From contig CAWBSQ010000005.1 in NCBI GenBank assembly GCA_963791555.1, forward strand, positions 3,346 to 67,345: a stretch of 64,000 bases of DNA, given 5' to 3'. Position numbers and translations under genes: made by a program. Numbering within the stretch: position 1 is the stretch's first letter; every line of letters begins with the position of its first letter. Below, one piece after another: positions 58,024-63,085 of this stretch. The stretch is from an uncultured Simkaniaceae bacterium. Its GTDB lineage: Bacteria; Chlamydiota; Chlamydiia; Chlamydiales; Rhabdochlamydiaceae. The notes under the pieces are model-generated. The model had not been told where the DNA came from and made no database searches. It was given only the letters and a program-made list of their open reading frames with translations.

Positions 58024-58110
58024 CGGAAGAGGTAGGATTCGAACCCACGGTCGGCTTGCGCCGACTGCTGTTTTCAAGACAGCCGCATTAGGCCACTCTG
58101 CCACTCTTCC
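58024..58110 (-). tRNA. tRNA-Ser(UGA), type II with long variable arm
   Basis: GGAAGAGTGGCAGAGTGGCCTAATGCGGCTGTCTTGAAAACAGCAGTCGGCGCAAGCCGACCGTGGGTTCGAATCCTACCTCTTCCG. The acceptor, anticodon (GCTGT/ACAGC), variable (GTCGGC/GCCGAC) and T stems all pair. No encoded CCA. Confidence 0.95.
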
Positions 58111-58555: not shown

Positions 58556-59575
58556 CTAAAATTGTGAGAGGAAGCGCATGTCGTTTTCGGCGAAGAGGCG
58601 GATATCTTTGATGTCCCAACGGAGCATGGCCAACCTTTCGACGCCCATCCCCCATGCATAGCCCGAATACTCCTCAGGATCGACTCCCCCGTTGCGTAAA
58701 ACTTCAGGGTGGATCATGCCAGCACCAGCTACTTCGAGCCAGCCGCTGAACTTACAAAGCCGGCAACCTTGACCTCGACATGATATGCACTCGAGATCGA
58801 CTTCCAGTCCTGGTTCGACAAAAGGAAAATAACTAGGACGAAAACGTGTTTTGAGGGGCATGTGAAAGAGTTTACGCCAGAATTCTTCCATAGTAGAAAG
58901 CAAATCAGCAAAACTAACGCCCTTATCGATATACATGCCTTCGACTTGATGAAAGAAGACGTGTGAGCGGGCCGTTACTGTCTCGTTGCGATAAACCGTT
59001 CCGGGCATAGCTACACGAATCGGCGGACGGTGTGCTTCCATAACGCGGAGCTGCGTATTGGAGGTATGGGTACGCAAGAGAAACTGCTTATCTACGTAGA
59101 AGGTATCCTGCATATCGCGTGCGGGATGATCTGGCGGAAAGTTCAACCCTTCGAAATTGTAGTAATCGGAATCGATATCGGGCCCTAACTGTACAGAAAA
59201 ACCCATCGATCGCAATACATCGAGCACTTCTTGCATCATGCGTGAAATGGGATGCATCCTGCCAAGCCAGCGCTTGCGCCCAGGTAAAGTTACATCGATG
59301 CGCTCGTTCTCAATTTGTTTAGCAAGTTCTTGTTGGATGAATGCAGTAGAGGCTTGCTTGCAAACATTCTCGAGCTCAGTCTTGAGCTCATTGACGAGTT
59401 TACCAAATAGAGGACGTTCTTCCGCTGTGATATTGCGCAAGTCTTGCATCAGCGCTTGTACAGGTCCTTTGCGTCCTAAAAATTTGACCTGCAACTGCTC
59501 GATGTCGCGTGTATTCTCAGCTTTTTTGAGATCTTGCTCAAAGTCTTGCCGAAGTCGTTCGAAGCGATCTTGCAT
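58556..59575 (-). CDS. pheS: phenylalanine--tRNA ligase alpha subunit
   Basis: Class II motifs FPFVEPG, GAGMIHPEVL and GYAWGMGVERLAML. Confidence 0.95.
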   Translation of the reverse strand: MQDRFERLRQDFEQDLKKAENTRDIEQLQVKFLGRKGPVQALMQDLRNITAEERPLFGKLVNELKTELENVCKQASTAFIQQELAKQIENERIDVTLPGRKRWLGRMHPISRMMQEVLDVLRSMGFSVQLGPDIDSDYYNFEGLNFPPDHPARDMQDTFYVDKQFLLRTHTSNTQLRVMEAHRPPIRVAMPGTVYRNETVTARSHVFFHQVEGMYIDKGVSFADLLSTMEEFWRKLFHMPLKTRFRPSYFPFVEPGLEVDLECISCRGQGCRLCKFSGWLEVAGAGMIHPEVLRNGGVDPEEYSGYAWGMGVERLAMLRWDIKDIRLFAENDMRFLSQF

Positions 59576-59635: not shown

Positions 59636-59992
59636 TTACGCTAGCGCTTCTTTAGCAGTGCCTGCTACAGCTGCAAAGCTATGTGGATCACGGATCGCCA
59701 TATCAGAGAGCATTTTTCGGTTGAGGGAGCAACCTGCTCTTTTGAGTCCGTTCACAAATTTGCTGTAAGAAATGCCGTTGATCTTTGCTGCTACGCTGAT
59801 GCGGACAGTCCAAAGACGACGAAAATCTCTCTTTCTTTGTTTACGATGCTTATAATTAAAGGCCATTGCTGACATTACAGCATCCGAAGTAAGCCGCAAG
59901 TGGTTTTTGCGATCTCCAACGAACCCTTTTGCCAATTTTAGCAACCGCTTTTTCCTGCGGTGCGTGGCCACGGCGTTAGTGACTCTTGCCAT
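59636..59992 (-). CDS. rplT: 50S ribosomal protein L20
   Basis: MARVTNAVATHRRKKRLLKLAKGF.G... is the typical L20 N-terminus. Confidence 0.95.
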   Translation of the reverse strand: MARVTNAVATHRRKKRLLKLAKGFVGDRKNHLRLTSDAVMSAMAFNYKHRKQRKRDFRRLWTVRISVAAKINGISYSKFVNGLKRAGCSLNRKMLSDMAIRDPHSFAAVAGTAKEALA

Positions 59993-60009: not shown

Positions 60010-60198
60010 TTAATTAACGCCCATTAAGAGCGCGTAGGTTTTTAAATGCCCTTTGTCGACGAGCTTGTCTTTTTGCAAACTACGTTTACGTTTAGAGCTT
60101 TTGTGTGCGAGCAAGTGGCGTCGCCCAGGACTCTTGCGAATGAGCTTGCCTGTGCCCGTCACTTTAAATTTTTTGACAACCGATTTACGGGTTTTCAT
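60010..60198 (-). CDS. rpmI: 50S ribosomal protein L35
   Basis: MKTRKSVVKKFKVTGTGKLIRKSPGRRHLL... I chose the internal ATG at 60198. The longer ORF in the track would overlap infC extensively. Confidence 0.9.
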   Translation of the reverse strand: MKTRKSVVKKFKVTGTGKLIRKSPGRRHLLAHKSSKRKRSLQKDKLVDKGHLKTYALLMGVN

Positions 60199-60796
60199 CT
60201 TTGTCACTTGAACTCTCCTGATTCGATTTCTTTTCGGAAGCAACAGTAACTTGCTTTTCTGGCTTCTCAGGTTTCTCATGCTTCTCTGGCTTTTTCTTGG
60301 TTCCACCCGGAGCGATGACCACCGAAAGCGCTTTACCAAGCATTCTTGGCGGTGATTCAGGCGTACCAACGTCAGTCAGATTTTCGCACATCCTGTGCAC
60401 CGAGCGCATTCCAAATTCAGTATGAAGCATCTCACGACCACGGAAAACGCACGTGATACGAACTTTGTTTCCCTTCATAAGGAATTCCCGAGCATGCTTA
60501 AGCTTAGTCATGAGGTCATGCTCATCCGTGTTGGGTTTGAGCTTGATCTCCTTAACTTTAACCTGATGCTGCGCTTTCTTGTTTTCCTTCTCTTTTTTGA
60601 CTAGTTGATAACGAAATTTGCCATAGTCGACGATCTTGCATACGGGCGGCTCGGCATTTGGCGCAATTTCAACTAGATCCAAACCTACTTGTTCTGCTCT
60701 GGACATCGCCTCTATAAGAGGAAGGATGCCAAGCAGTTCACCATCTTTATCAAGTACTCTAACTCTGGGTGCGCGAATTTCTCTATTAATTCTCAA
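60185..60796 (-). CDS. infC: translation initiation factor IF-3 with a Lys/Glu/Pro-rich C-terminal tail
   Basis: RINREIRAPRVRVLDKDGELLGI... plus the C-domain. Apparent TTG start overlapping the stop of the upstream ThrRS-like gene. Confidence 0.9.
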   Translation of the reverse strand: MRINREIRAPRVRVLDKDGELLGILPLIEAMSRAEQVGLDLVEIAPNAEPPVCKIVDYGKFRYQLVKKEKENKKAQHQVKVKEIKLKPNTDEHDLMTKLKHAREFLMKGNKVRITCVFRGREMLHTEFGMRSVHRMCENLTDVGTPESPPRMLGKALSVVIAPGGTKKKPEKHEKPEKPEKQVTVASEKKSNQESSSDKDENP

Positions 60797-62277
60797 TGTT
60801 TCACCATGTTCACAAACTCGTCCACACTCATCGTCTCTTCTTTTTCGCTATTCGAGGTTCTCCAGGAGATCTTTTTCCATTCCTTCTCCTTAGGACCTAT
60901 GACGACGAGATAGGGAATACCTTCCTTTACCGCACCATGAACTCGCTCTTTTAGCGAGACAGATTGTGCATCGATATGGACACGTAGTCCCTCTTTTTCA
61001 AGCTGATCACGTACCTCATCGGCATAGGCTCGAAGATCAGCATGAAGGAGAAAAATCCTTACCTGCTCTTCGATGAGCTCAAAAGGAAGGGCTTTATTCT
61101 TCTGGACGACTAACGCCAAGAACCGCTCCCAAGAGCCAACTAGCGAACCAATGATGATCCACGATCCAGGCAATGATTTTGCTCTCATGATTTCAAGGGT
61201 TGGCCCAGACCACGAATATCCCTCTCCATCCATCAACCGTAATTCGAAACTCACCTGCGATGAAGCACTAGGCTCAATCGCATACTGCTCATCTACAAGA
61301 GCTTTTTGCAAAAGCGAGCTTTCAAACGACGACTGCGAGGCATACAAAACTGCCTGCATTTCAAAGCAAAAGATTTTAGGGATTTGGCGCATCAATTGCA
61401 AGGAAGAAATAATTGTTTCGAAAAGCCTAGCTTCAGGAACTACTCTGCAGAAAAGATCTTGGAATCCACACAGAGGCGTAAGAACGCCATAATCAAAAAT
61501 CTCTTGCCCATGCTCAAGATAGCATAGCTGAGCCAACTTGTCCCCACTCTTTTCCCCTTTTAAACTCTCGGCAAGTAGTAAAAAGTGCGAACGGGCGTCG
61601 TTCTTGGATACTCCTTGCGGGGTCGAAACAAAAGAAAATTTTTCTTGGAGCATGAGAGTTTCCCACAATCCCAGAAGAGCTTTCCTGGCACACTCCCCTT
61701 TCGGCCAATAGCACCATCCTTCATCGACTTGCTTTAAAAGCTTTAACTGCATAGCAAGTTGTGTTGGATCATCCATTGCATAGGGATTCAAATCTTTCTT
61801 TTTGATCTTATCTGCAGAAAGGACTCCTTTGATTCGATAGATGGCTTCTTCTTTGAATGAGCCCACCTCAATTGCCCCTACTAAGGCAAAAAATTCTCCA
61901 CCAGATGTGGTGTCTAGAAAAGAAGACAAGGGAATGGCCTGATCCGCATAGCGGAGAATCTGGACAAGGGCATTTTTTTGAGCAGGCAGTTGGCAAACTA
62001 AAAGATCTTGGCCGTGTGCTGCGAAAAGAGCCGCCGCTCCTGCTACACTCATCTCCAATTCTTCAAAGGGCTTTCTTCGCTCGATCGCCTTCTTCATCAG
62101 TTCTTCGACAAAGGGCAAAAAGCTCTCTTCCCAATCGGTATCAAGTACGACATCGACGAAAAAAAAGGCTTCATGCGTCCAAACTTTTACAAGCCTAGCT
62201 TGAGAGAATTGGTCGCAAAGAACCGAAGCTAAGACTATCGATAGCTGCTGAACTGAATATTGGGAATCGGTTTTCAA
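60793..62277 (-). CDS. threonyl-tRNA-synthetase-like protein lacking the TGS domain and apparently lacking catalytic and editing ligands
   Basis: Collinear by eye with E. coli ThrRS N2, catalytic and anticodon-binding domains (GSLVGSWERFLALVV ~ ILGSMERFIGILT; IPYLVVIGPKEKE ~ VPYMLVCGDKEVE). It occupies the thrS position upstream of infC-rpmI-rplT-pheS. Confidence 0.65.
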   Translation of the reverse strand: MKTDSQYSVQQLSIVLASVLCDQFSQARLVKVWTHEAFFFVDVVLDTDWEESFLPFVEELMKKAIERRKPFEELEMSVAGAAALFAAHGQDLLVCQLPAQKNALVQILRYADQAIPLSSFLDTTSGGEFFALVGAIEVGSFKEEAIYRIKGVLSADKIKKKDLNPYAMDDPTQLAMQLKLLKQVDEGWCYWPKGECARKALLGLWETLMLQEKFSFVSTPQGVSKNDARSHFLLLAESLKGEKSGDKLAQLCYLEHGQEIFDYGVLTPLCGFQDLFCRVVPEARLFETIISSLQLMRQIPKIFCFEMQAVLYASQSSFESSLLQKALVDEQYAIEPSASSQVSFELRLMDGEGYSWSGPTLEIMRAKSLPGSWIIIGSLVGSWERFLALVVQKNKALPFELIEEQVRIFLLHADLRAYADEVRDQLEKEGLRVHIDAQSVSLKERVHGAVKEGIPYLVVIGPKEKEWKKISWRTSNSEKEETMSVDEFVNMVKH

Positions 62278-62300
62278 ACGAAACTTAAGTTAAACAATGT

Positions 62301-62374
62301 TGGGATATAGCTGACTCGAACAGCTGACCTCCACGATGTCAACGTGGCGCTCTAACCAACTGAGCTAATACCCC
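62301..62374 (-). tRNA. tRNA-Val(GAC)
   Basis: GGGGTATTAGCTCAGTTGGTTAGAGCGCCACGTTGACATCGTGGAGGTCAGCTGTTCGAGTCAGCTATATCCCA. All four stems pair. Confidence 0.95.
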
Positions 62375-62488
62375 ATACGGTTGAGAGCAGAGATTCTACC
62401 TTAGCATAGCAATTTTGACAAGAACTTGGTTTCTCTTTAGAGTTCTTATCGATAAACTTCTTTTCTCGGCGACACTCAAATTAGGACT

Positions 62489-63085
62489 ATGCAGTATTCT
62501 TTTTTTCCTCTTTTTTCTTCGCATATCGATCTTGCCCACCACTACTGGATGCAACTCGCAAAAAAAGGAGATACGGTCATCGATGCCACCTGCGGTAATG
62601 GCAAGGACGCTTTAGTACTGGCCCGGCTTGTTATAGACGAAGCGCAAGGACATTTGATAGCTCTTGATATTCAACCAGAAGCACTTCTACATACACGTCA
62701 ATACCTTGGAGAGCATCTCTCTGAGCCCATGATGACAAAAATTTCTTTAATCGAGTGCTCTCATTCTGAATTCCCCAAAGAGATCGCGCACGGCAGCGTA
62801 AAATTAATTGTTTACAACCTTGGCTACCTTCCCACTGGCACCAAAGCGATTACGACCATGACGATGACGACTTTGGTTAGCGTAGAAAAGGCTCTAGGAC
62901 TGCTTTCCCCTGGCGGCCTGCTCTCCATCACCTGTTATCCAGGCCATGATGAAGGGAAAAAAGAAGAAGCAGCGCTCGAATCCTGGCTGAAAGCCCTTAG
63001 TCCCAAATCGTATAGTGTTTGCCAGCATCGCTGGCTCAATCGCTCCCACTCTCCATCGCTACTTTTAGTACAAAAGAAAATTTGA
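62489..63085 (+). CDS. SAM-dependent methyltransferase, YtqB/MnmM (putative rRNA methylase PF06962-like) family
   Basis: VIDATCGNGKDALVLA, LIALDIQ, VYNLGYLPTG and CYPGHDEGKKE match the family pattern. Confidence 0.7.
   Translation: MQYSFFPLFSSHIDLAHHYWMQLAKKGDTVIDATCGNGKDALVLARLVIDEAQGHLIALDIQPEALLHTRQYLGEHLSEPMMTKISLIECSHSEFPKEIAHGSVKLIVYNLGYLPTGTKAITTMTMTTLVSVEKALGLLSPGGLLSITCYPGHDEGKKEEAALESWLKALSPKSYSVCQHRWLNRSHSPSLLLVQKKI

What the first reader, a model, noticed from the sequence alone, without database searches (positions are those of the whole stretch)
60793..62277. ThrRS-like protein in the canonical thrS slot that appears catalytically and editing-dead
The 494-aa product is collinear with ThrRS from the N2 editing domain to the anticodon-binding domain, but it lacks the TGS domain. 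In my by-eye alignment to E. coli ThrRS, the functionally critical residues are all replaced. The editing histidines HSCAHLLGH (H73/H77) align with QQLSIVLAS. The zinc ligand C334 region (PMNCPGH) aligns with KNDARSH. Motif 2 SCHRNEPSG aligns with CYLEHGQEI. The H385 region (QDDAHIFC) aligns with FQDLFCRV. H511 in VMIHRAILGSMERF aligns with SWIIIGSLVGSWERF. The gene is translationally coupled to infC, with stop and start overlapping, exactly as thrS is in the thrS-infC-rpmI-rplT-pheST operon of other bacteria. It could be a pseudo-synthetase with a regulatory or tRNA-binding role, or a highly unusual ThrRS.
Basis: partly seen in the sequence, partly recalled or inferred. Interest (0 to 1): 0.6.

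Follow-up and report, generated by a model that had tools for sequence, protein, structure and literature searches.

The report
Dead threonyl-tRNA synthetase copy before infC
The gene in front of the initiation-factor-3 gene is a well-folded but catalytically dead copy of threonyl-tRNA synthetase, which environmental chlamydiae have kept for a very long time beside a normal working copy elsewhere in the genome; its job is unknown and is probably RNA binding rather than catalysis.

Summary
Window 60793..62277 (-) is an intact 494-aa ORF. It is collinear with bacterial ThrRS from the N2 (editing) domain to the anticodon-binding domain and has no TGS domain. MAFFT and profile-profile alignments both fail to restore the editing residues, the three zinc ligands or the motif 2 arginine. 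Only the motif 3 GSxER and the anticodon-binding residues equivalent to E600 and R609 survive.

The genome has a complete canonical thrS on another contig, so this is a pseudo-synthetase and not the cell's ThrRS. It is not a decaying pseudogene:
- dN/dS is 0.24-0.32.
- AlphaFold gives pLDDT 94.6, and full-length ThrRS structures are the best matches.
- At least 150 sequence clusters of the same TGS-less, catalytically eroded family exist.
- The gene lies between tRNA-Val(GAC) and infC in about 52 of 61 Chlamydiales genomes sampled.

It was cleanly deleted in four lineages and is absent from the genus Chlamydia. Some lineages lost the anticodon-binding domain, so it is dispensable.

The most likely role is a non-catalytic protein that binds tRNA(Thr)-type anticodon loops. 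This is inferred, at about 40%. I found no description in the literature I could search. Earlier agents of this scan reached the same verdict in seven other genomes.

The parts
62393..62421 (-). Sigma-70-like promoter candidate (TTGTCA, 17-nt spacer, TAGAAT) just upstream of the tRNA gene
   Evidence: Consensus scan, 10 of 12 matches. This is a pattern match only; no transcript data were available.
62299..62375 (-). tRNA-Val(GAC) gene, which ends 21 nt before the start codon of the ThrRS-like ORF
   Evidence: ARAGORN and Rfam tRNA at 66.8 bits. The same tRNA is in the same position in 21 of 21 related loci. In the four genomes that lack the paralog it lies directly before infC.
60793..62277 (-). 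ThrRS-derived pseudo-synthetase gene (494 aa, TTG start, TGA stop)
   Evidence: dN/dS is 0.24-0.32 against the homologue that is 69% identical.
61783..62277 (-). N2 (editing-domain)-like part, residues 1-165. The editing residues H73, H77, C182 and H186 are absent.
   Evidence: Alignments, AlphaFold secondary structure and Foldseek matches to full-length ThrRS.
61093..61782 (-). Shrunken class II catalytic-core remnant, residues 166-395. The motif 1 proline (P220) and motif 3 G381-S382-x-E384-R385 are kept. C334, R363, H385 and H511 are absent.
60796..61092 (-). Anticodon-binding domain, residues 396-494, with E464 and R473 (equivalent to E. coli E600 and R609)
   Evidence: Pfam PF03129 at 3e-17, PDB phmmer hits to ThrRS anticodon-binding domains and family column counts.
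60793..60796 (-). TTGA overlap of the pseudo-synthetase stop codon (TGA) and the infC start codon (TTG)
   Evidence: Sequence. Overlaps of 4, 11 or 14 nt occur in 11 of the 13 other loci sampled from the window's GTDB family (the 11 genome loci L009-L019 plus L029 and L032); other families have gaps of 11-85 nt.
60185..60796 (-). infC (IF-3), TTG start
   Evidence: TIGR00168 at 2e-61; Pfam IF3_N and IF3_C.
60010..60210 (-). rpmI (L35)
   Evidence: tblastn synteny; Pfam Ribosomal_L35p on the homologous locus L034.
59636..59992 (-). rplT (L20)
58556..59575 (-). pheS

Best explanation
This is a pseudo-synthetase derived from ThrRS. It descends from the thrS gene that bacteria normally keep in front of infC-rpmI-rplT-pheS. 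It has lost the TGS domain, all editing residues, the catalytic zinc site and the motif 2 arginine. It still folds as N2-like domain, class II core and anticodon-binding domain, and selection maintains it. A separate canonical ThrRS elsewhere in the genome charges tRNA-Thr.

The gene is one member of a large family spread across the Chlamydiales. The family always lies between tRNA-Val(GAC) and infC, probably as one transcription unit. In this lineage the gene is translationally coupled to infC.

Shown here: homology, fold, loss of the catalytic and editing residues, presence of a second intact thrS, purifying selection, order-wide synteny, and dispensability in some lineages.

Inferred, at about 40%: it acts without catalysis as an RNA-binding protein, probably a class II-type dimer. 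It would hold a tRNA(Thr)-type anticodon loop (G35), or a mimic of one, through the retained E464 and R473 pair of its anticodon-binding domain. Its role would then be an accessory one in tRNA-Thr handling or in control of translation genes.
For: Homology and fold:
- hhalign to canonical ThrRS gives prob 99.7, E 2e-26.
- The AlphaFold model has pLDDT 94.6 and pTM 0.92.
- The best PDB matches are full-length ThrRS structures 6vu9, 1qf6 and 1nyq, at E 1e-28 to 1e-30 and 16-17% identity.

Dead active sites:
- Across 146 family representatives, C334 is never Cys and H511 is never His. R363 is Arg in 11, H73 is His in 7 and H77 is His in 9.
- The least eroded member, P0147, keeps a ThrRS-like sequence but has C334S, R363T, E365A, H511A, H73S and H77E.

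Canonical enzyme present: G000 C1:80350-82014 scores 655.8 bits against the 383.65 cut-off. It has every catalytic residue and groups with other chlamydial ThrRS.

Selection:
- dN/dS is 0.24-0.32, against 0.02-0.08 for the neighbouring infC, rplT, pheS and mnmM (0.20-0.22 for the 65-codon rpmI). It is below 0.45 in each of the three domains.
- The ORFs are intact in all sampled genomes except one, G046, which has an in-frame TAG.

Family and synteny:
- At least 150 clusters at 50% identity, 400-610 aa, none with a TGS domain.
- The gene lies directly upstream of infC in about 52 of 61 Chlamydiales genomes.
- tRNA-Val(GAC) lies directly upstream in 21 of 21 loci, with a gap of 5-26 nt in 18 of the 22 loci measured.

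RNA-binding inference:
- The anticodon-binding domain is the best-conserved domain.
- The E600 equivalent is Glu in 133 of 135 members and the R609 equivalent is Arg in 132 of 137.
- These are among the residues named as responsible for binding the anticodon-like loop of the thrS operator (PMC6430810).
- The motif 1 proline of the class II dimer interface is kept in 77% of members.
Against: - No direct functional data exist.
- Eleven of 146 representatives, and several genomes, have lost the anticodon-binding domain altogether. The domain therefore cannot carry the function in every lineage.
- The gene was cleanly deleted in 4 of the 61 sampled genomes and is absent from all 5 Chlamydia genomes tested. 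Whatever it does is dispensable.
- It evolves 5-10 times faster than the canonical ThrRS.
- No hairpin resembling a tRNA(Thr) anticodon loop was found in the operon or in the canonical thrS leader.
- E600 and R609 might be kept for structural reasons only.
- R583 is replaced by His in most members.
Confidence: 0.6

Rival explanations
1. It is a non-catalytic partner subunit of the canonical ThrRS. In this reading the dead copy forms a heterodimer with the active enzyme through the class II interface and modulates its activity, stability or tRNA capture. SLIMP does this with mitochondrial SerRS2 in insects.
For: - The class II core fold and the motif 1 proline are retained.
- Every genome that has the paralog also has a canonical ThrRS.
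- N2 and core are the parts present in all members, including those without the anticodon-binding domain.
- SLIMP is listed as a non-aminoacylating SerRS paralogue in the review read (PMC9437257).
Against: - No interaction could be tested, because a complex could not be modelled with the tools at hand.
- The canonical ThrRS works without the paralog in Chlamydia and in four other lineages.
- The fast and uneven evolution of the paralog fits poorly with a tight obligate interface.
Confidence: 0.15
2. It is an evolutionary relic kept mainly for operon mechanics. In this reading the ORF has to be translated to deliver ribosomes to the overlapping, weak TTG start of infC. Selection then acts mostly on keeping the frame open and the product harmlessly folded, not on any activity of the protein.
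For: - The stop and start codons overlap as TTGA here, and by 4-14 nt in most loci of the window's family.
- The rate of change is very high, 26-46% identity where IF-3 is 70-84% identical.
- Domains have been lost repeatedly, and the gene has been deleted cleanly with tRNA-Val then abutting infC.
Against: - dN/dS of 0.24-0.32 lies well below neutrality in all three domains.
- The fold is preserved with high confidence across members that are 25-30% identical.
- E600, R609, D472, W478 and R520 are nearly invariant.
- In most other families a gap of 11-85 nt separates the gene from infC, so there is no coupling to preserve there.
Confidence: 0.12
3. It is still an enzyme. It would be either a very unusual ThrRS or a class II-derived enzyme with new chemistry that uses the retained motif 3 arginine and a remodelled pocket.
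For: The motif 3 E519 and R520 equivalents are conserved in 84% and 90% of members. Other aaRS paralogues such as AsnA, PoxA and aa:CP ligases kept catalysis (review read).
Against: - No new constellation of polar residues is conserved in the pocket. The conserved positions are the structural ones shared with ThrRS.
- The motif 2 arginine and all zinc ligands are gone in every member.
- The segment that carries C334 is deleted here.
- A full canonical ThrRS is present.
Confidence: 0.05

Closest known systems
Canonical bacterial threonyl-tRNA synthetase (ThrS; NCBIfam TIGR00418; PDB 1qf6 E. coli, 1nyq S. aureus, 6vu9)
   Same: The domain order N2, class II core, anticodon-binding domain is the same, and so is the fold (Foldseek E 1e-28 to 1e-30). 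The motif 1 proline, motif 3 GSxER, E600 and R609 are kept. The genomic slot upstream of infC-rpmI-rplT-pheS is the same.
   Different: There is no TGS domain. The editing residues H73, H77, C182 and H186 are missing. The zinc ligands C334, H385 and H511 and the motif 2 R363 are missing. The core has lost about 86 residues. The protein scores 99.7 bits against a cut-off of 383.65. The real ThrRS is encoded elsewhere in the genome.
HisZ (HisRS paralogue, regulatory subunit of ATP phosphoribosyltransferase)
   Same: It is a bacterial class II aaRS paralogue that keeps the synthetase fold, has no aminoacylation activity and serves a non-catalytic role (PMC9437257).
   Different: HisZ derives from HisRS, lacks an anticodon-binding domain, has a known partner (HisG) and sits in histidine-biosynthesis contexts. 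This protein derives from ThrRS, keeps the anticodon-binding domain, and has neither a known partner nor a metabolic context.
SLIMP (SerRS-like insect mitochondrial protein)
   Same: It is a catalytically inactive class II synthetase paralogue that coexists with the active enzyme (PMC9437257).
   Different: SLIMP is eukaryotic and derives from SerRS. A heterodimer with the active enzyme, as reported for SLIMP, has not been tested for this protein.
Free-standing ThrRS-ed / Ser-tRNA(Thr) hydrolase of Crenarchaeota (NF011500), and AlaX
   Same: These are ThrRS-related proteins that lack aminoacylation activity and carry an N2-type domain plus, in ThrRS-ed, an anticodon-binding domain. NF011500 gives a weak hit through the anticodon-binding domain (7.6e-11, 41.6 bits against a cut-off of 362).
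   Different: Those proteins keep the editing active site. Here the editing histidines and the cysteine are all gone, so a proofreading role is not supported.
E. coli ThrRS as translational repressor of its own mRNA (operator with anticodon-arm mimics)
   Same: That is a non-catalytic use of the ThrRS anticodon-binding domain, with R583, E600 and R609 binding an anticodon-like loop next to a ribosome-binding site (PMC6430810). Here E600 and R609 are retained, and the gene starts 21 nt after a tRNA structure.
   Different: The upstream tRNA here is tRNA-Val(GAC), which has A35 and C36 rather than G35 and U36. No Thr-anticodon-like hairpin was found in the operon or in the thrS leader. R583 is His here.

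Membership tests
Threonine--tRNA ligase (TIGR00418 equivalog) | The whole-protein HMM score reaches the curated cut-off (383.65 bits) | tested here: not met
   99.7 bits in two stretches, the better one covering the anticodon-binding domain. The genome's real thrS scores 655.8 bits.
Threonine--tRNA ligase (TIGR00418 equivalog) | Catalytic zinc site (C334, H385, H511 in E. coli numbering) | tested here: not met
   C334 lies in a deleted or unaligned segment. H385 is deleted (hhalign) or replaced by Cys (MAFFT). H511 is replaced by I376. In the family, Cys at 334 occurs in 0 of 146 and His at 511 in 0 of 146.
Threonine--tRNA ligase (TIGR00418 equivalog) | Class II motif 2 arginine (R363) and motif 3 arginine (R520) for ATP binding | tested here: not met
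   R363 is lost and is Arg in only 11 of 146 family members. R520 is kept as R385, and is Arg in 131 of 146.
Threonine--tRNA ligase (TIGR00418 equivalog) | N2 editing site (H73, H77, C182, H186) | tested here: not met
   H73 is Q10 and H77 is I14. C182 and H186 lie in a 20-residue deletion.
Threonine--tRNA ligase (TIGR00418 equivalog) | HGTP-type anticodon-binding domain with E600 and R609 | tested here: met
   PF03129 at 3e-17. E464 and R473 align to E600 and R609.
Threonine--tRNA ligase (TIGR00418 equivalog) | Aminoacylation of tRNA-Thr | not testable with these tools
   This needs a biochemical assay or complementation of a thrS mutant.
Ser-tRNA(Thr) hydrolase / ThrRS-ed (NF011500) and AlaX-type trans-editing factors | Intact editing-site motif (HxxxH and CxxxH equivalents) | tested here: not met
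   All four positions are absent. NF011500 scores 41.6 bits against a cut-off of 362, through the anticodon-binding domain only.
Chlamydial TGS-less dead-ThrRS family (undescribed; defined here by homology and position) | The proteins form one clade separate from canonical ThrRS; they have N2-like domain plus degenerate core, with or without the anticodon-binding domain; the gene lies between tRNA-Val(GAC) and infC | tested here: met
   The paralogs form one clade with SH-aLRT 100, and the window protein lies inside it. Synteny is shown.
Non-catalytic aaRS paralogues that act as partner subunits (HisZ, SLIMP) | A stable complex with a defined partner protein | not testable with these tools
   Only single chains taken unchanged from the window or from fetched loci can be modelled. 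No interaction data are available.

The most novel reading that the evidence does not exclude
The dead ThrRS could be a trans-acting RNA-binding regulator that environmental chlamydiae kept from the ancestral self-repressing ThrRS. In this reading it senses tRNA-Thr, or a mimic of it, through its intact anticodon-binding pair E464 and R473. It would then tune synthesis of IF-3, L35 and L20 from the tRNA-Val-led operon, or it would buffer tRNA-Thr for the active ThrRS as a heterodimer. That would make it the first bacterial pseudo-synthetase with a role in translational control.
Probability: 0.15. Interest if true: 0.75.

Novelty: new variant of a known kind. Interest (0 to 1): 0.5.

Why it matters
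Synthetase paralogues that have lost catalysis, such as HisZ, SLIMP and the GCN2 HisRS-like domain, are classic cases of enzymes turned into regulators. The review of duplicated synthetases that I read lists no ThrRS-derived pseudo-synthetase in bacteria.

This family is large: at least 150 clusters at 50% identity. It spans the whole chlamydial order apart from the pathogenic genus Chlamydia. It has stayed in one place, between tRNA-Val and infC, while losing every catalytic residue.

It also shows a graded series. Some members are near ThrRS-like, others lack the anticodon-binding domain or are shrunken, and in some lineages the gene is cleanly deleted. That makes it a natural model for how an essential enzyme gene is displaced, repurposed and eventually lost.

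In practical terms, databases leave these proteins unnamed or call them 'threonyl-tRNA synthetase'. That name would mislead metabolic reconstructions.

Tried and rejected
1. Operator hypothesis. I scanned the operon RNA strand (window 62450 to 58500) and the canonical thrS region for hairpins with at least 4 bp of stem and a 7-nt loop matching YUNGURN. There were none, against a background of 2-3 per 64 kb. Rfam finds only the two tRNAs.

2. Recognition of the upstream tRNA-Val by the paralog. Its anticodon is GAC (A35, C36), which does not fit a pocket built on E600 and R609 for G35. I dropped this as a specific proposal.

3. Proofreading-only role, like ThrRS-ed. I rejected it because all four editing residues are missing.

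4. Origin from a TGS-less active ThrRS of the P0009/P0010 type. This type sits next to the paralog clade in the tree. However, that outgroup was chosen by similarity to the query. P0010 also lies in an unrelated context, with neither tRNA-Val nor infC nearby. The question is unresolved.

5. Outgroup synteny. The 'phylum' scope contains only this one order, so sister lineages could not be examined.

6. Searches that added nothing. The search for related loci with A3 failed because no stretch was conserved enough; with A2 it found only one Simkania MAG. The second homologous-protein search added nothing new. A literature search for the C. trachomatis locus tag upstream of infC was uninformative. 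Direct genome searches later showed that Chlamydia lacks the gene.

8. The weak Pfam TIR_2 hit (E 0.002, below the cut-off) on the anticodon-binding domain is treated as a fold-level coincidence.
Full report
**1. The object**

Window 60793..62277 on the minus strand is an open frame of 494 codons that starts with TTG. Its TGA stop overlaps the TTG start of infC in the tetranucleotide TTGA. infC (TIGR00168, 2e-61), rpmI, rplT and pheS follow on the same strand. This is the order of the E. coli thrS-infC-rpmI-rplT-pheS cluster.

Upstream, only 21 nt before the start codon, lies a tRNA-Val(GAC) gene at 62299-62375 on the same strand. A promoter-like site lies just beyond it. That leaves no room for an N-terminal TGS domain. 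A MnmM-type tRNA methyltransferase gene is transcribed divergently at 62489..63085.

**2. Is it ThrRS-like, and is it dead?**

Sequence profiles see little of a synthetase:
- Pfam recognises only the HGTP anticodon-binding domain (residues 405-493, 3e-17).
- The thrS equivalog TIGR00418 gives 99.7 bits against a cut-off of 383.65.

Three other lines show collinearity with full-length bacterial ThrRS from about E. coli residue 63 to the C-terminus:
- A MAFFT alignment with E. coli ThrRS, the genome's own ThrRS and two others.
- An independent profile-profile alignment against 13 canonical ThrRS (hhalign prob 99.7, E 2e-26, 455 columns).
- An AlphaFold model built on 85 family members (pLDDT 94.6, pTM 0.92). 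Its best PDB matches are 6vu9, 1qf6 and 1nyq at E 1e-28 to 1e-30 and 16-17% identity.

The residue mapping is as follows:
- H73 is replaced by Q10 and H77 by I14.
- The DMCRGPH segment, which carries C182 and H186, falls in a 20-residue deletion.
- The PMNCPGH segment, which carries C334, is deleted or unalignable.
- R363 and E365 are lost.
- H385 is lost. hhalign deletes D383-A384-H385 and matches LFC277 to IFC388. MAFFT instead puts C277 at position 385.
- H511 is replaced by I376 and R512 by G377.

What survives is the motif 1 proline (P220), the motif 3 G-S-x-E-R (381-385), and E464 and R473, which are equivalent to E600 and R609 in the anticodon-binding domain.

KNDARSH belongs near E. 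coli 303-309, not at PMNCPGH. Its conclusion is still correct.

**3. A working ThrRS exists elsewhere**

The assembly has 2.32 Mb in 5 contigs and is 98.9% complete. It holds a canonical thrS at C1:80350-82014, which scores 655.8 bits and encodes 643 aa. All editing and catalytic residues are present. In a tree it groups with the canonical ThrRS of other chlamydiae. The window gene is therefore a second, non-canonical copy.

**4. A large family**

A full phmmer scan of 1.84 billion cluster representatives gives 1125 hits at E <= 1e-3. The best 150 are all TGS-less proteins of 400-610 aa. Sources leave them unnamed, or call them 'hypothetical protein' or 'threonyl-tRNA synthetase'. The named organisms are Simkania sp., Rhabdochlamydiaceae, Parachlamydiales, Candidatus Similichlamydia laticola and Chlamydiia.

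Counts of the canonical residue at each position, across 146 representatives:

| E. coli position | Representatives that keep it |
|---|---|
| C334 | 0 |
| H511 | 0 |
| R363 | 11 |
| H73 | 7 |
| H77 | 9 |
| H385 | 47 |
| D180 | 95 |
| C182 | 60 |
| E519 | 122 |
| R520 | 131 |

Of 85 members scanned against Pfam, all hit HGTP_anticodon, 18 hit tRNA-synt_2b and 2 hit tRNA_SAD.

The least eroded member, P0147 (611 aa), reads like a ThrRS almost throughout. Yet it has C334S, R363T, E365A, H511A, H73S and H77E. This is the signature of an old, targeted loss of catalysis followed by lineage-specific erosion.

The window's lineage is among the most derived. It has also lost family-consensus features such as the RDH motif, D180 and W536. 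It sits on a long internal branch in the tree.

**5. Position and distribution**

I sampled 61 genomes of the order: 37 from the window's GTDB family and 24 from other families.
- A family member lies immediately upstream of infC in about 52.
- Five genomes are undetermined because the assemblies are incomplete.
- In four (G006, G038, G040, G054) the gene is absent from the whole genome. There tRNA-Val(GAC) lies 27-244 nt before infC, which is a clean deletion.

tRNA-Val(GAC) precedes the gene in 21 of 21 loci. The gap to the start codon is 5-26 nt in 18 of the 22 loci measured.

In the window's family the stop codon overlaps the infC TTG start by 4, 11 or 14 nt. In other families a gap of 11-85 nt separates them.

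The genus Chlamydia was identified by its MOMP gene. All five genomes tested lack the paralog. There the tRNA-Val is inverted and lies 2.5 kb from infC. This probably explains why the family has escaped experimental attention.

About 8% of representatives, and several sampled genomes, lack the anticodon-binding domain. One copy, in G046, has an in-frame TAG.

**6. Selection**

I compared the window with the homologue that is 69% identical (L034, from a metagenome with identical synteny). dN/dS values were as follows:

| Gene | dN/dS |
|---|---|
| ThrRS-like | 0.24 (NG86), 0.32 (ML) |
| infC | 0.06-0.08 |
| rplT | 0.02 |
| pheS | 0.02 |
| mnmM | 0.07 |
| rpmI (65 codons) | 0.20-0.22 |

By domain, the ThrRS-like gene gives 0.24-0.35 for N2, 0.20-0.26 for the core and 0.33-0.44 for the anticodon-binding domain.

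Constraint is therefore relaxed but clearly present. Across genera the protein is 26-46% identical where IF-3 is 70-84% identical. Terminal branches are 5-10 times longer than those of canonical ThrRS.

Three facts together exclude a neutral pseudogene: the frames are open in some fifty lineages separated at family level, the fold is confidently conserved, and a set of residues is nearly invariant. These are D472, W478, R520, E527, G597, E600 and R609.

**7. What it most likely does**

Nothing points to a new catalytic centre. The conserved positions are the structural ones shared with ThrRS. The only family-specific block is an I-S-S-L-Q-F helix after motif 2.

The best-conserved domain is the anticodon-binding domain. 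Within it the E600 and R609 equivalents are kept in 133 of 135 and 132 of 137 members. A published account names R583, E600 and R609 as the residues responsible for binding the anticodon-like loop of the thrS operator (PMC6430810). R583 is His in most members, and it is not conserved in all canonical ThrRS either.

My preferred reading, at about 40%, is therefore a non-catalytic, probably dimeric protein that binds a tRNA(Thr)-type anticodon loop or a mimic of one.

The specific idea that it represses its own operon through an operator found no support. The adjacent tRNA is tRNA-Val(GAC), which does not fit a pocket that reads G35.

Three rivals remain:
- A SLIMP-like partner of the active ThrRS (about 15%).
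- A translated relic kept for infC coupling (about 12%). This is weakened by dN/dS, the conserved fold and the uncoupled arrangement in other families.
- A cryptic enzyme (about 5%).

**8. Origin**

The gene occupies the universal thrS slot, so it is most simply either the ancestral in-situ thrS or a tandem duplicate of it. On this view its function was taken over by the copy that now lies elsewhere.

The tree places the paralog clade (SH-aLRT 100) apart from the chlamydial canonical clade (SH-aLRT 100) and nearer to some TGS-less ThrRS of unknown taxa. That outgroup was selected by similarity to the query, and long branches are involved. I treat the placement as a lead only. Sister phyla could not be reached with the genome tool.

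**9. Known or new?**

Full-text searches found no description of a catalytically dead bacterial ThrRS paralogue. The searches covered ThrRS paralogues, ThrRS-like proteins, pseudo-synthetases, and chlamydiae with thrS and infC. A 2022 review of duplicated synthetases lists only cyanobacterial T2 and metazoan ThrRS-L for ThrRS.

Within this scan, earlier agents reported the same family in seven other genomes with the same verdict. I consulted these notes after reaching my own reading. They are not independent evidence.

The kind of protein, an aaRS-derived non-enzyme, is known. A ThrRS-derived family that spans an order and is locked in one position is a new variant of that kind.

**10. Limits**

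- No complex could be modelled.
- At this divergence the alignment in the motif 2 region is uncertain in detail. MAFFT and hhalign differ in register, although neither restores a catalytic residue.

Noticed in passing
window 62299-62375 (-), and 25 related loci (L009-L032, L034): tRNA-Val(GAC) is fixed at the head of the infC operon across the whole order. It lies 5-26 nt before the pseudo-ThrRS start codon in most genomes, and directly before infC where the paralog is deleted. After tRNA processing the downstream mRNA would have almost no leader.
   Followed up: partly
window 60794-60796 (-), and infC starts in L008-L034: infC starts with TTG in nearly every Chlamydiales genome examined. A non-AUG start is the feature IF-3 uses for autoregulation in E. 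coli. Here the IF-3 protein also carries a charged C-terminal tail, and its 3' end overlaps rpmI.
   Followed up: partly
L035-L039 (genus Chlamydia, G070, G105, G150, G166, G180): In Chlamydia the tRNA-Val(GAC) gene is inverted and lies about 2.5 kb upstream of infC. Two opposite-strand genes of about 300 and 175-200 aa lie between them. A local rearrangement therefore accompanied loss of the paralog.
   Followed up: partly
G046:C37:4928-6306 (-): The copy in this genome is split by one in-frame TAG into frames of 392 and 279 aa. It may be a recent pseudogene or a sequencing error.
   Followed up: no
L020 1187-2641 (G040): In one lineage that lost the paralog, the gene upstream of tRNA-Val and infC looks like a 484-aa FAD-dependent oxidoreductase of the L-aspartate oxidase or succinate dehydrogenase flavoprotein type. 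I judged this by eye from the GxGxxG N-terminus and ran no family search.
   Followed up: no
window 62489-63085 (+): An MnmM-type tRNA (mnm5s2U34) methyltransferase gene (NF053511, 4e-53) is transcribed divergently from the tRNA-Val promoter region. This neighbour is conserved in most genera of the window's family.
   Followed up: partly
window 58024-58110 (-): A tRNA-Ser(UGA) gene lies just downstream of pheS. Another finding in this window treats it as the anchor of a small mobile cassette.
   Followed up: no
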